IMG/VR virus record: IMGVR_UViG_3300050151_000036
Span: 1-42,649 of that record
Length of the DNA: 42,649 bases
Origin: a virus
Taxonomy: Duplodnaviria > Caudoviricetes
Reading direction: 5' to 3' (one strand)
A program made the position numbers and the translations under genes. Of this stretch, positions 3,163-25,805 are shown piece by piece (positions within the stretch are counted from its first letter, which is position 1; each line of letters opens with the position of its first letter). The notes beneath the pieces are model-generated. The model did not search any database. It saw nothing but the letters and a program-made list of their open reading frames with translations, and was not told the origin of the DNA.

Positions 3163-3190
3163 TTGACAAAAAAGAAAAAAGATGTATAAT
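3163..3190 (+). promoter_or_regulatory. Sigma70 promoter (rightward)
   Basis: TTGACA (3163-3168), 16 nt, TATAAT (3185-3190); A/T tract upstream resembles an UP element. Confidence 0.75.
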
Positions 3191-5959: not shown

Positions 5960-6043
5960 GCGGGTGTGGTGGAATGGAATACACATCAGACTTAAAATCT
6001 GACGCCGCAAGGATTGAGGGTTCGAGTCCCTCCACCCGTACCA
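5960..6043 (+). tRNA. tRNA-Leu(TAA)
   Basis: Acceptor GCGGGTG/CACCCGT, anticodon arm TCAGA-CTTAAAA-TCTGA, long variable arm, GGTTCGAGTCC, encoded CCA. Confidence 0.95.
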
Positions 6044-6111
6044 TGTCGTATAAACTGATGAGTTGCCGACATTAAATGCAACGAAACCATTATGAAAATT
6101 AATGGTATTTA
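6043..6111 (+). ncRNA. Type I hammerhead ribozyme with loop II pseudoknot
   Basis: CTGATGA (6055-6061), stem II GTTGC/GCAAC, GAAA (6083-6086), stem III CCATTA/TAATGG, GTA cleavage triplet (6105-6107), stem I TAAA/TTTA; loop II CGACAT complementary to ATGTCG (6043-6048). Confidence 0.88.
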
Positions 6112-6321
6112 ATTAGCTATGGCTGACTAATCATATGCCAGCTGGTCTTTAGGGGATGCATACCCAACAGATCAGGAACGATTCAACTGAGTGTGACTCC
6201 CTTCATATCTGCTACAAGATATGCTTGAATGGTGACAGCATCTAGCCAAAGCCAAACCGTAGCGTGGTCCCCTTGCCAACCAAACAAGGAATCTATTAAC
6301 CCTATTAATTGGAGCAGCGCC

Positions 6322-6930
6322 ATGCAGTCTCTTTCTTCTTTTCGCACCCCGGATGTTGACAAAACGCTGGGTATTGAATTGGAATGTGTTCTTGAAGAGC
6401 CGTTCCAGGCCCAACGCTACATTGGTTTTTTCTATGTCACCACCGATGGTAGCATCATGGGTCGTGATGGTTACGGTCGTGAATTTGTGAGCCAGCCGCT
6501 GCCCTCAAAGTGGCTGAAAAAAGAATTGGATCGTTTGCAAAAGAAAATCCCGCAGTATTCTGTGAACGATTCTTGTGGCATTCATGTGCATGCTTCCCGC
6601 AAGTGGGTGACTCCGAAGCGCCTTGCAGCTTTGACTCAGTTTTTCAAAGACAATATTGATGGTGATGATGCACAACTCCTGTTCGGGCGGCGGCCAAACC
6701 AGTACTGTCGTTCGCTGTACCAACAACACTATGATAAGCGGTACTACTGCATTAATTCCACTAATCCAAAAACGGTGGAGTTTCGTATGTTCGCAAGCGG
6801 GTCGATCATGTGGGCTAAGTACTGCGTGGACATGGTTGAATACCTCATCACCAACGCATACCATCTGAACCCCACCGCATTGTATGCGGCCAGTGACCTA
6901 CTCAAAAAGCAGTACAACATCCCTCATTAA
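6322..6930 (+). CDS. Putative amidoligase (Amidoligase_2-like COOH-NH2 ligase)
   Basis: GIELE, DGSI, EFVS, SCGIHVH, TVEFRMF motifs; start moved to the ATG after GGAG. Confidence 0.8.
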   Translation: MQSLSSFRTPDVDKTLGIELECVLEEPFQAQRYIGFFYVTTDGSIMGRDGYGREFVSQPLPSKWLKKELDRLQKKIPQYSVNDSCGIHVHASRKWVTPKRLAALTQFFKDNIDGDDAQLLFGRRPNQYCRSLYQQHYDKRYYCINSTNPKTVEFRMFASGSIMWAKYCVDMVEYLITNAYHLNPTALYAASDLLKKQYNIPH

Positions 6931-20493: not shown

Positions 20494-20647
20494 TGATAAT
20501 GAATTTGCACGTTATTTAACACAGCATTTATACGATAATGATTATTGGGTTTCTGGTGGTCCAATTTCAGGTATATATCCAGAAATATACATAGACCAAG
20601 ATGTTTTATATTTAGTTATTAAAGATTTTATGGATAAATTACCTTGA
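20474..20647 (+). CDS. Small hypothetical protein (57 aa; absent from track)
   Basis: GAGG RBS; fills the gap between helicase and polymerase and overlaps both. Confidence 0.5.
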   Translation: MSLNSLDDNEFARYLTQHLYDNDYWVSGGPISGIYPEIYIDQDVLYLVIKDFMDKLP

Positions 20648-21822
20648 ACATATGCATTGACGTTGAAACTACAATTAAGAATAAAGGCCACGCATTTGAT
20701 CCAGATAACAAATTAGTTAGTTATGCTATATCTAGTCCTAGTAGTTCTAGTAATTTCTTGTACTGCACAGACCCAGGCTTTAGACGTAACGTCTTCTGGG
20801 GATTGGATGCGAGACATACAGTTGTGGGCTTTAATTTTAAGTTTGATTTGCATTGGCTATTTCGTGAAGGACATACTTTAAATCCTGATACTAAGATATG
20901 GGATGTTCAATTAGCAGAATTTATTATTAGTGGGCAGACTGCTTCTTTCATGTCACTTAATGAGACATTAGCAAGCTACCAATTACCTTTGAAGCATGAT
21001 GCAGTGAAAGAATACTGGGATCAGGGTATTGATACTAATGATATTCCTGTCATATTATTGGAAGAGTATAATGTCTATGACACTGAAGGCACGTTGGCTG
21101 CGATGCAGCAACAGCAAGAACTTATGTCACCCAAACAAATTAAACTTGTATATCTGCTGGGTGAAGACTTGAAGACGTTGCAGGATGCAGAATTTAATGG
21201 AATTAAATGGGATGCTAAAAAAGCTAAGACTAAACTTGAGAAGTATAAGGCCGATGTGGCCAGTATCGAACGAAGATTGGCTAGTTATCTACCTAATATC
21301 CAGCATGGTAGCTTCAATTTCGACAGTGGCGATCATCTTAGCTGCTTGTTGTACGGTGGTGAGATAAACTTTGAGTATACGGTACCTGAGAGCGCGCTTT
21401 ACAAGAGTGGCCCTAATAAGGGTGAGGAGTATGTTAGGAATCGACACTACAAGGAAAATGTGTACTTTGGCCCCAGATTTACACCTCTTGCGAACACAGA
21501 AGTTAAAAAGACTAAAGGAATCCCAAACGTTACGACGAGGTACTACCAAGTTGACGCACCGACTCTCTCACAACTGAAGCCACGATTAAAGCCAAATAAA
21601 GAGTTACTAGTCTTACTCCAAGAACGTTCTGATAAGCAAAAGATTATAGAAATGATTGAAAGTATTGAAAAAACTAGAACTACTCTAAACTGGCAAGATG
21701 ATTTGTTACACCCACAATTTAATCAAAACATTGTGATTACAGGTAGACTATCTTCTAGCAAACCAAACATGCAAAATACTCCATTAGAAGTTGATGAACT
21801 ATTAATTAGTAGATATGATTAA
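20644..21822 (+). CDS. Family A DNA polymerase, part 1 (3'-5' exonuclease and thumb)
   Basis: ExoI IDVETT, ExoII GFNFKFDL, ExoIII YNVYD; ends just after TGRLSSSKPNMQN. Confidence 0.9.
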   Translation: MNICIDVETTIKNKGHAFDPDNKLVSYAISSPSSSSNFLYCTDPGFRRNVFWGLDARHTVVGFNFKFDLHWLFREGHTLNPDTKIWDVQLAEFIISGQTASFMSLNETLASYQLPLKHDAVKEYWDQGIDTNDIPVILLEEYNVYDTEGTLAAMQQQQELMSPKQIKLVYLLGEDLKTLQDAEFNGIKWDAKKAKTKLEKYKADVASIERRLASYLPNIQHGSFNFDSGDHLSCLLYGGEINFEYTVPESALYKSGPNKGEEYVRNRHYKENVYFGPRFTPLANTEVKKTKGIPNVTTRYYQVDAPTLSQLKPRLKPNKELLVLLQERSDKQKIIEMIESIEKTRTTLNWQDDLLHPQFNQNIVITGRLSSSKPNMQNTPLEVDELLISRYD

Positions 21823-22550
21823 TGCTAGTCAATGTAGATATTAAGGGGCTTGAAGTTGTTGTAGCTGCTGAATTAAGTGGGGATAAAGTATTAAAACAGG
21901 AGATTATAGATAAAGTAGACATTCACGACACTAACCGTGTACGTTTTGGCCTCGGGGAAGGCAAGCCCGGTAGGTTAGTTGCTAAGATTCTGAAGTTTCG
22001 GATCATTTATGGAGGTGGTGCGTACTCATTTGCACATGATTCTGATTTTACTTCTGTTAGCACCAGTGAGAAGTTTTGGCAAGGTATTATTGATGAGTAC
22101 TACACAAAGTATTCCGGTGTAAAGAAATGGCATGACTCTATTGTTGAGCAAGCCAAACTTACTGGATATTTAGAAATACCTTCAGGTAGGTACTTTGAAT
22201 TCAAACCATTTAAGAATGCTTGGGGTTATCGTTGGCCTGAAACTACTATTAAAAACTATCCTGTCCAGGGGTTCGGGGCAGACCTTGTAATGCTTGCAAG
22301 GATTGACTTCTGGAAGAAGTTCAAAGCATCCGGTTTAGAAGGATTATTCATTCAAACAGTGCATGACTCTCTAGTAGTTGATACACCAAGTAAAAATGTT
22401 GAGATAGTTGCAAAAATGTTGCAAGAAAGTATTGCAAAAGTCCCGGAATTATGCTATACTAATTGGGATTACAAATTCTCACTACCAATGACTAGTGAGA
22501 TTCTTGTTGGACCAAACAAAAAGGATTTAAAAGAGTATGTCATTATTTAG
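21822..22550 (+). CDS. Family A DNA polymerase, part 2 (palm and fingers)
   Basis: Motif A VDIKGLE, motif B R..AK..F..IYG, NYPVQG, motif C VHDS. Confidence 0.9.
   Translation: MLVNVDIKGLEVVVAAELSGDKVLKQEIIDKVDIHDTNRVRFGLGEGKPGRLVAKILKFRIIYGGGAYSFAHDSDFTSVSTSEKFWQGIIDEYYTKYSGVKKWHDSIVEQAKLTGYLEIPSGRYFEFKPFKNAWGYRWPETTIKNYPVQGFGADLVMLARIDFWKKFKASGLEGLFIQTVHDSLVVDTPSKNVEIVAKMLQESIAKVPELCYTNWDYKFSLPMTSEILVGPNKKDLKEYVII
22432..22460 (+). promoter_or_regulatory. Internal sigma70 promoter upstream of SSB
   Basis: TTGCAA-17 nt-TATACT with extended TGn, inside the polymerase 3' end. Confidence 0.6.
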
Positions 22551-24860: not shown

Positions 24861-25048
24861 AAATTATCGAAGTTCCTATTTTTAATGATGATGGGAGTGT
24901 TCAAGTAACACATGTTCTAAATCCTGAAGAAGCACAAGGTATGCTACAGTTTGCTATTAACTTTCTAACAGCAGCAGGTATGTCTACAGTTAGTGCCGTT
25001 AACAAAGCTAAAGCGAGTCAACAACAAGAACTACCATTTAATGACTAA
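24857..25048 (+). CDS. Hypothetical protein
   Basis: 63 aa, coupled on both sides. Confidence 0.6.
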   Translation: MKIIEVPIFNDDGSVQVTHVLNPEEAQGMLQFAINFLTAAGMSTVSAVNKAKASQQQELPFND

Positions 25049-25805
25049 GATTGTAGTAATTCCTGATTGTCAAATTAGACCGGGAGATAATACAGACTTC
25101 CTAGAACGTATTGGTACTTACATTGTTGATAAGAAGCCTGACACAGTGGTTTGTATTGGAGATTTTGCTGATCTACCAAGCCTCTCCTCTTATGACATAG
25201 GTAAGAAATCATTTGAAGGTAGACGATATAAAGCAGACATTGAAGCAACACATGCTGCGATGACCAGACTGTTAGCTCCAATTAATAACTATAATAAAAA
25301 AGCAAAAGAAGGTCATAGAGAACGTTACTATCCACAGTTAGTTCTAACACTTGGTAATCATTGCGAACGTATTAACCGAGTTGTAGAATCTGATCCAAAG
25401 TTAGATGGTACTATTTCAATAGAAGACCTTAAATATAAGGAATTCGGTTGGAATGTCATACCTTTTTTGGAGCCTGTTATTATTGATGGTGTTGCCTTTT
25501 GTCACTATTTCACCACTGGTGTTATGGGACGACCTGCTACGAGTGCTCAAGCACAGCTTACAAAAAAGCATATGTCTTGTGTTGCTGGCCATCAACAAGG
25601 TTTCCAAGTAGCCACTGGGCATAGAGCCGATGGCACTAGATTAACTTCAGTAATTGCTGGTTCTTGCTACGAACATAATGAAGATTATTTAGGCCCACAA
25701 GGAAATAAACACTGGAGGGGCATTCTAGTATTACACGGCGTTAATAATGGTGAGTACGATCTTATGCCAGTCTCACTAGATTATTTAAAGAAGAAATATG
25801 CTTAA
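25041..25805 (+). CDS. Calcineurin-like metallophosphoesterase
   Basis: IPDCQ, IGDFAD, LGNH, FCH, AGH motifs. Confidence 0.85.
   Translation: MTKIVVIPDCQIRPGDNTDFLERIGTYIVDKKPDTVVCIGDFADLPSLSSYDIGKKSFEGRRYKADIEATHAAMTRLLAPINNYNKKAKEGHRERYYPQLVLTLGNHCERINRVVESDPKLDGTISIEDLKYKEFGWNVIPFLEPVIIDGVAFCHYFTTGVMGRPATSAQAQLTKKHMSCVAGHQQGFQVATGHRADGTRLTSVIAGSCYEHNEDYLGPQGNKHWRGILVLHGVNNGEYDLMPVSLDYLKKKYA

What the first reader, a model, noticed from the sequence alone, without database searches (positions are those of the whole stretch)
6043..6111. Pseudoknotted hammerhead ribozyme fused to the CCA end of a phage tRNA-Leu
Seen: a complete core (CUGAUGA 6055-6061, GAAA 6083-6086, GUA triplet 6105-6107), 5-bp stem II, 6-bp stem III and a weak 4-bp A-U stem I. 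Loop II CGACAU is perfectly complementary to AUGUCG at 6043-6048, whose first base is the terminal A of the tRNA CCA. Known: natural hammerheads rely on stem I/loop II tertiary contacts, and tRNA-linked self-cleavers in phages are described mainly for HDV-like theta ribozymes. Inference: cleavage after 6107 releases the tRNA precursor from the early polycistron and gives the downstream amidoligase mRNA a 5'-OH end, which may stabilise it.
Basis: partly seen in the sequence, partly recalled or inferred. Interest (0 to 1): 0.88.

Follow-up and report, generated by a model that had tools for sequence, protein, structure and literature searches.

The report
Hammerhead ribozyme heading phage amidoligase leader
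A small RNA with every hallmark of a self-cutting hammerhead ribozyme sits right behind a phage tRNA gene, but in relatives it stays with the downstream amidoligase gene rather than the tRNA, so it likely cuts the phage's early message to start a structured, probably stabilised amidoligase RNA.

Summary
A complete type I hammerhead lies at 6043-6111, the only one in the window (0 of 500 shuffles match it), and its loop II pseudoknot covaries across 33 distinct relatives. Rfam misses this subfamily. The 'fusion' to A76 looks incidental: that pair fails in 18 of 33 sequences, only 5-8 of 33 follow a tRNA, and the cut falls 64 nt past CCA, unlike theta ribozymes. The steadier partner lies downstream: 13 of 33 loci carry the same amidoligase gene, and only 3 of those 13 have a tRNA in front. 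Just past the cut, the leader holds an uncatalogued module, a second covarying pseudoknot plus a hairpin with a self-complementary apex (13 of 13), a possible kissing-loop dimer site. Separately, type I hammerhead cores cluster 6-19 nt behind phage tRNA CCA ends (21, against 2 at 21-50 nt). Cleavage and function are untested. Pseudoknotted phage hammerheads have been known since 2011, including in the related phages PaP3 and LUZ24, and this scan earlier noted hammerheads behind tRNAs and ahead of amidoligase genes on other DNA. Verdict: new variant of a known kind, interest 0.5.

The parts
5960..6043 (+). tRNA-Leu(UAA) with encoded CCA; optional upstream neighbour of the ribozyme
   Evidence: ARAGORN; Rfam RF00005 60.1 bits
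6043..6048 (+). 5' strand of pseudoknot 1; first base is tRNA A76; pairs with loop II 6067-6072
   Evidence: covariation; the A76 pair itself is poorly kept
6049..6049 (+). Conserved U just after the pseudoknot strand; possible tertiary contact (inference)
   Evidence: U in 32 of 33, not part of the search pattern
6051..6054 (+). Stem I, 5' strand (4 A-U pairs with 6108-6111)
6055..6061 (+). Catalytic core C3-A9
   Evidence: consensus as in PMC3088659 methods passage
6062..6082 (+). Stem II (5 bp) with an 11-nt loop II carrying the pseudoknot 3' strand at 6067-6072
   Evidence: stem II 92% paired, 4 of 5 pairs with compensatory changes
6083..6107 (+). GAAA core, stem III hairpin and GUA triplet; predicted cut between 6107 and 6108
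   Evidence: stem III pairing probability 0.99
6108..6111 (+). Stem I, 3' strand; first bases of the predicted 5'-OH product
6115..6143 (+). Leader hairpin A; loop bases 6129-6132 predicted to pair with 6180-6183 (pseudoknot 2)
   Evidence: only 4 bp (-1.8 kcal/mol) in this genome, the weakest of 9
6144..6173 (+). Leader hairpin B with the self-complementary hexamer AUGCAU (6156-6161) in an 8-nt loop; candidate kissing-loop site
6180..6195 (+). 3' strand of pseudoknot 2 followed by a shared CUGRG-type motif at 6187
6322..6930 (+). Amidoligase_2 gene (202 aa from the ATG at 6322), the conserved downstream partner
   Evidence: Pfam PF12224 29.5 bits, cutoff 22; PHROG 2443; homologs in 12 other loci

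Best explanation
This is a type I hammerhead of a pseudoknot-stabilised phage subfamily that likely cuts the phage's early polycistronic RNA after 6107 and would thereby give the amidoligase message a new 5'-OH end, 7 nt ahead of a conserved, predicted pseudoknotted leader that probably shields it from decay. Shown: the core, stems and coordinates; covariation of pseudoknot 1 and stem II; the amidoligase gene downstream in 13 of 33 relatives; the covarying leader module. Inferred: transcription by host RNA polymerase from sigma70-like promoters at 3163 and 3925 straight through to this site; cleavage; and stabilisation, because RNase E prefers 5'-monophosphate ends and is hindered by 5' structure (the end preference is recalled; inhibition by structure is in PMC4033574). 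The tRNA is a movable passenger. It would be left with a 64-nt trailer ending in a 2',3'-cyclic phosphate and would still need host nucleases to mature.
For: Unique, non-chance hammerhead. Pseudoknot 87.9% paired with 23 double changes against 7.2 shuffled, 0 of 500; slid registers 14-50% paired. Amidoligase homologs (33-53% identity) follow in 13 of 33 loci, 12 of them 208-306 nt past the GAAA. A tRNA lies upstream in only 3 of those 13, and the same tRNA types lie downstream of the gene in L275, L278, L283 and the window. Leader pseudoknot: cognate score 102, 4 of 362,880 permutations and 1 of 5,000 shuffles as high. All 22 complete hammerheads found 6-20 nt behind tRNAs are type I, which leave the ribozyme body on the tRNA, and no type III was found among 82 distinct hits at 21-50 nt, although 20 of 109 generic viral hammerhead motifs are type III. 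Precedent for prophage hammerheads processing polycistronic transcripts: PMC3088659 section 6.
Against: No cleavage or expression data. Stem I is only 4 A-U pairs, and an inactive fold wins in nested prediction. Sampling was motif-first, so the share of these amidoligase genes that carry a hammerhead is unknown: the gene-first viral search found only one close relative, L023, which has it, and 77 distant homologs (32% identity or less) have none. Twenty of 33 family members have no amidoligase downstream (2 of them have under 200 nt to look at), so the ribozyme is not gene-specific. In all 3 amidoligase loci that do have a tRNA, its CCA abuts the pseudoknot within 0-1 nt, with three different tRNA sequences. 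The promoter scan found no more sites than shuffles (8 against 11.3). The loop and anchor of the leader test were chosen by eye; an unanchored search did not pick out pseudoknot 2.
Confidence: 0.55

Rival explanations
1. The ribozyme is there mainly for the tRNA. It releases the pre-tRNA from the long transcript and hands host nucleases a short trailer, a cruder version of what theta ribozymes are proposed to do.
For: Complete hammerheads sit 6-19 nt behind CCA in 21 distinct viral loci with 10 tRNA types, against 2 at 21-50 nt (p 3e-8 by locus and 3e-4 counting about 11 groups by eye). They lie after tRNAs more often than before (6 against 1 in a matched subset, p 0.06). This family follows tRNAs more often than generic hammerheads do (5 of 33 against 3 of 109, Fisher p 0.017).
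Against: The cut is 64 nt from CCA, and the theta criterion is within 5 nt. No type III geometry, which would cut near CCA, was found. Ten of 13 amidoligase loci lack the tRNA. Tight packing of RNA genes in phage tRNA clusters alone would give a peak at short spacing (inference).
Confidence: 0.17
2. The cut defines the 5' end of a small structured phage RNA (pseudoknot plus self-complementary hairpin) that dimerises by a kissing loop and has its own job. The amidoligase frame only follows it.
For: A palindromic tetramer sits at the hairpin B apex in 13 of 13 loci and a full hexamer in 11 of 13; four different tetramers occur among leaders only 41-59% identical. By eye, hairpins whose loops pair downstream also follow the ribozyme in several loci without the amidoligase (not tested).
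Against: No terminator-like site lies between the leader and the gene. A loose palindrome test has a high background: 12 of 13 against 5.7 expected, and 9 of 19 against 9.3 in the other loci. The outer pair of a hexamer can be an ordinary stem pair. The window's hairpins fold no better than shuffles (z -0.7 to -1.0). No Rfam match.
Confidence: 0.13
3. The cut lowers or times amidoligase expression, as glmS cleavage does, possibly switched by the competing fold.
For: glmS cleavage leads to decay (PMC6765202 section 13; PMC4033574). An inactive fold competes here.
Against: The hairpin that sequesters the core needs bases that many relatives lack (alignment). A hairpin and pseudoknot right at the new 5' end fit protection better than decay. 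No ligand-binding motif was found.
Confidence: 0.07
4. This copy is slow or dead, a relic with a decayed stem I.
For: Stem I has only 4 A-U pairs; the active fold without the pseudoknot is 7 kcal/mol above the alternative.
Against: The core is perfect. Relatives have similar 3-8 bp, often A-U-rich stems I. This copy scores 67.8 bits on the family model, which was built with it.
Confidence: 0.08

Closest known systems
Pseudoknot-stabilised type I hammerhead ribozymes of phages and prophages (Perreault et al. 2011, PMC3088659; Rfam clan CL00010)
   Same: Full consensus core, three stems, type I topology, a base-paired contact between the stem I side and loop II (about 40% of hammerheads in that paper), intergenic phage location; proposed to process polycistronic RNA.
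   Different: A fixed subfamily geometry (5-bp stem II, 11-nt loop, conserved U) below every Rfam gathering score. A conserved link to an amidoligase leader with a second pseudoknot and a palindromic hairpin was not found in the papers searched. The paper's alignment supplement was cut in the held copy, so whether environmental members are already listed there could not be checked.
Early-region type I hammerheads of Pseudomonas phages PaP3 and LUZ24 (Dataset S1 and Fig. S6 legend of PMC3088659)
   Same: Related podovirus layout with the amidoligase, COOH-NH2 ligase, GATase and ATP-grasp cluster; a type I hammerhead on the early strand near the genome end (PaP3 44111-44036).
   Different: PaP3's ribozyme is a core variant between two small ORFs, on the strand opposite to and far from its tRNAs, and scores only 9.3 bits on this family's model.
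Theta ribozymes (Kienbeck et al. 2024, PMC10879173)
   Same: A small self-cleaving RNA directly behind a phage tRNA gene.
   Different: Theta ribozymes are HDV-like and cut within 5 nt of the tRNA 3' end, and only 4.5% of their tRNAs encode CCA. Here the fold is a hammerhead, CCA is encoded, and the cut is 64 nt away.
Retroviral dimer-initiation (kissing-loop) hairpins, recalled from memory
   Same: A six-base self-complementary loop flanked by purines on a hairpin in an RNA leader.
   Different: Resemblance only. No homology is claimed and dimer formation is untested.

Membership tests
Hammerhead ribozyme, type I | Core C3 U4 G5 A6 N7 G8 A9 / G12 A13 A14 A15 / U16 H17 | tested here: met
   consensus as given in PMC3088659
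Hammerhead ribozyme, type I | Three helices paired next to the core, stem I open-ended | tested here: met
   Stems of 4, 5 and 6 bp; 26 of 33 relatives pass a full descriptor; stem II covaries
Hammerhead ribozyme, type I | Tertiary contact between the stem I side and loop II | tested here: met
   Pseudoknot covariation, 0 of 500 shuffles
Hammerhead ribozyme, type I | Site-specific self-cleavage | not testable with these tools
   Needs an in vitro assay or infection RNA data
Rfam hammerhead families (clan CL00010) | Score at or above a family's gathering threshold | tested here: not met
   Best 19.6 bits against 48.5; best relative 30.3; none. This shows the subfamily is not covered by the models, not that it fails the class.
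Theta ribozyme | Minimal HDV-like nested double pseudoknot | tested here: not met
   The fold is a hammerhead; no HDV-like Rfam match
Theta ribozyme | Cleavage site within 5 nt of the tRNA 3' end | tested here: not met
   64 nt (6043 to 6107); criterion
Hammerhead-bearing double-pseudoknot phage RNA (earlier notes of this scan) | Hammerhead inserted between two interlocking halves of a core of about 100 nt | tested here: inconclusive
   There is no room for a 5' half, as the tRNA abuts the ribozyme. The notes give no sequence, so the downstream module could not be compared.
Kissing-loop dimer hairpin | Self-complementary loop kept while its sequence changes | tested here: met
   Tetramer in 13 of 13 and hexamer in 11 of 13, four different tetramers; position picked after inspection
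Kissing-loop dimer hairpin | Intermolecular dimer formation | not testable with these tools
   Needs a native gel or mass photometry

The most novel reading that the evidence does not exclude
The hammerhead is the on-switch of an uncatalogued phage RNA device. Cutting after 6107 frees a pseudoknotted leader whose self-complementary hairpin pairs two copies into a kissing-loop dimer that controls or stores the amidoligase message. More widely, phages park type I hammerheads directly behind tRNA CCA ends as a second, hammerhead-based system of tRNA-operon processing beside theta ribozymes.
Probability: 0.25. Interest if true: 0.8.

Novelty: new variant of a known kind. Interest (0 to 1): 0.5.

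Why it matters
What bacterial and phage hammerheads are for is still largely open (PMC6765202 section 13). This locus gives a conserved gene partner, a conserved structure at the new 5' end and a movable tRNA, so one small construct can separate 'mRNA end-maker' from 'tRNA releaser'. The subfamily and its leader are missed by Rfam. The 6-19 nt clustering behind tRNAs and the palindromic leader hairpin were not found in the paper searches made, though the library lacks most subscription journals.

Tried and rejected
Rfam at gathering level found only tRNAs, and nothing named the leader or the relatives' flanks. blastn of the region and of the ribozyme against cultured phages gave only tRNA or chance hits. 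Gene-first searches: the single protein found 0 relatives; the alignment found 2 viral loci and 76 distant genome loci; none of the 77 distant loci holds a hammerhead by descriptor (positive control 26 of 33). The family pattern had 0 hits in GTDB contigs. The family model found nothing in MEP401, MEP402 or the stretches fetched from QDWS535 and ctOsX528, and no second copy in the window. My descriptor missed the PaP3 ribozyme, so it under-calls variants. No RNA holder was listed for the stretch. RNAalifold on a plain alignment of leaders gave no useful consensus; the unanchored pseudoknot search picked other pairings; the loose palindrome test has a high background. tblastn used the wrong frame and was redone. 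A 13-nt loop motif shared by the window and L023 is not repeated as an element elsewhere in the window and proved to be loop A. Likenesses of the leader to ZTP, SAM-II and pistol RNAs, recalled from memory, were dropped because the order of elements differs and Rfam shows no match. Dataset S1 of PMC3088659 is cut in the held copy and its alignments were not seen.

Full report
Setting. The window is a 42.6-kb virus record, estimated 88% complete, with the gene set of PaP3/LUZ24- and phiEco32-like podoviruses: two Amidoligase_2 genes, a COOH-NH2 ligase, two glutamine amidotransferases and an ATP-grasp protein on the early strand, and structural genes on the other. The nearest cultured phages match the COOH-NH2 ligase at 44% identity or less. 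Sigma70-like promoters lie at 3163 (12 of 12) and 3925 (10 of 12), and no terminator-like site is called on the + strand between 4388 and 6614 (the scan's totals are not above shuffles). The finding therefore most likely lies inside one early transcript.

Observation. All coordinates check. The hammerhead at 6043-6111 is the only descriptor hit on either strand; 500 shuffles gave 0 of equal quality and 0.006 per window at loose settings. Rfam reports only the three tRNAs at gathering level and a partial Hammerhead_3 match at 19.6 bits. Nested folding favours an inactive form in which the pseudoknot strands close a hairpin over the core (-15.1 against -7.7 kcal/mol), so the active fold needs the pseudoknot (duplex -5.6, or -4.5 without A76).

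Relatives. Patterns that did not mention tRNA gave 71 viral and 32 metagenome loci and 0 in GTDB contigs. Filtering all loci held for the family loop left 37 distinct sequences including the window. I dropped 4 (three without hammerhead stems, and one fragment nearly identical to L284), leaving 33, of which 26 pass a full type I descriptor. On their alignment the pseudoknot is 87.9% paired, with 23 double changes against 7.2 in shuffles (0 of 500) and 14-50% pairing in slid registers. Stem II is 92% paired. The pattern fixed part of loop II but none of its 5' partner. The tool warns that relatedness can inflate the shuffle result, but the changes include G-C to C-G swaps and five pair types at one column. 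The pair that involves A76 is the weakest: 18 of 33 are unpaired, and 5 of the 8 that keep A-U have no tRNA directly upstream.

Which neighbour is kept. A plain tRNA lies 11-27 nt upstream in 5 of 33 loci, and tRNA-like 3' ends in 3 more. A homolog of the 202-aa amidoligase (ATG at 6322) lies downstream in 13 of 33, at 208-306 nt from the GAAA in 12 and 549 nt in one; two of the 20 without it have under 200 nt to inspect. Only 3 of the 13 (window, L023, L270) have a tRNA in front. In L275, L278 and L283, tRNA-Leu and/or tRNA-Arg lie downstream of the gene instead, as tRNA-Met and tRNA-Arg do in the window. Against this reading: in those 3 loci three different tRNA sequences abut the pseudoknot within 0-1 nt. 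The gene-first test is thin, with one close relative, which has the ribozyme, and 77 distant homologs, which have none.

The leader. The cut would leave a 187-282-nt leader (214 here). Prompted partly by earlier notes of this scan on knotted RNAs around phage hammerheads, I looked for more structure. In 9 loci whose first 100 nt are 41-59% identical, a hairpin just past the cut has a loop complementary to 4-6 nt about 50 nt further on, with a different sequence nearly every time. Cognate pairing beat all but 4 of 362,880 assignments and 1 of 5,000 shuffles. Loop and anchor were chosen by eye, an unanchored search did not single the pairing out, and the window's own version is the weakest (4 bp). 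The other 4 loci have a different first hairpin and were not included in this test. The next hairpin has a palindromic tetramer at its apex in 13 of 13 loci and a hexamer in 11 of 13, with four different tetramers. This is the pattern expected of a kissing loop (a resemblance recalled from memory). A looser test gave 12 of 13 against 5.7 expected, and no excess in the 19 other loci tested (9 against 9.3). Rfam names none of this.

Hammerheads and tRNAs in general. A tRNA-first scan gave 59 loci, 49 distinct. Of these, 22 are complete type I hammerheads (null mean 0.66, maximum 3) and 21 have an ARAGORN tRNA, with cores 6-19 nt after CCA. At 21-50 nt, 82 distinct hits (60 of 64 parts scanned) hold 3, which is within the null, and 2 of them have a tRNA. 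By eye the 21 fall into about 11-12 related groups. Among 109 distinct generic viral hammerhead motifs (7 of 64 parts scanned), 3 lie within 60 nt behind a tRNA and 20 are type III. A scan for hammerheads ahead of tRNAs found 1 among 44 distinct hits, against 6 behind in the matched subset (p 0.06). The adjacency is real and recurrent, but tight packing of RNA genes could produce the peak, and the type I geometry is the wrong one for trimming a tRNA end.

Mechanism. Most likely (0.55) the ribozyme cuts co-transcriptionally after 6107, and the product that matters is the downstream RNA, which starts with a 5'-OH and a structured leader. The tRNA is released with a 64-nt trailer and needs host nucleases. 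Rivals: tRNA release as the main purpose (0.17), a separate dimerising RNA (0.13), a dead copy (0.08), glmS-like down-regulation (0.07). That the RNA is an active hammerhead I put at about 0.9.

Literature seen. PMC3088659: abstract, passages, section 6 in full and supplement searches (Dataset S1 cut, alignments not seen, and they may already list members of this subfamily). PMC10879173: passages; the word hammerhead does not occur in it. PMC6765202: passages and section 13. PMC10085705, PMC10580990 and PMC4033574: passages. Searches for hammerheads beside phage tRNAs, ribozymes with amidoligases and palindromic kissing loops in phage RNAs listed no paper that describes these arrangements; on LUZ24 transcript processing and on ribozymes and mRNA stability were seen as listings only, apart from PMC4033574.

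Verdict. A true member of the type I hammerhead class by sequence and covariation; not a theta ribozyme; an uncatalogued subfamily with a conserved gene partner and an unusual leader.

Noticed in passing
L508:312-376, minus strand: A complete type I hammerhead whose stem I is formed by the 5' acceptor strand of tRNA-His. The predicted cut falls exactly before the G-1 base (316; ARAGORN start 315), so it could make the tRNA-His 5' end without RNase P, though with a 5'-OH. Single case.
   Followed up: partly
window 5806, 6800, 8105, 15372, 19653: The 10-mer GGTCGATCAT occurs 5 times, all on the + strand (0.035 expected), and it or a one-base variant lies near the ribozyme in 9 related loci. A possible phage-specific promoter or antitermination site.
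   Followed up: partly
window 3858 and 4021: Two boxA-like elements (name recalled) in the long non-coding early region, each downstream of a sigma70-like promoter.
   Followed up: no
L277, L287, L065, L072, L102, L111, L259, L280, L289, 100-300 nt downstream of the ribozyme: Loci without the amidoligase share two short motifs (AAGTTGT, then GCAGCC) and, by eye, a hairpin whose loop pairs downstream; no Rfam match. Possibly a larger uncatalogued RNA.
   Followed up: no
L287, L279, L260, directly upstream of the ribozyme: tRNA-like 3' ends with long insertions that ARAGORN calls only with its intron option, and with unstable isotypes.
   Followed up: no
window coding regions: UUA and AGA codons, read by the phage's tRNA-Leu and tRNA-Arg, are absent from the two early genes counted (0 of 38 Leu, 0 of 23 Arg), and UUA makes up about half of the Leu codons in late structural genes.
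   Followed up: partly
window 24993-25805: A metallophosphoesterase gene. A phage relative of this family is cited as a 2',3'-cyclic nucleotide phosphodiesterase (reference title), so it might heal the ribozyme's cyclic-phosphate end. Speculation.
   Followed up: no
window 20644-22550: The DNA polymerase is split over two adjacent ORFs.
   Followed up: no
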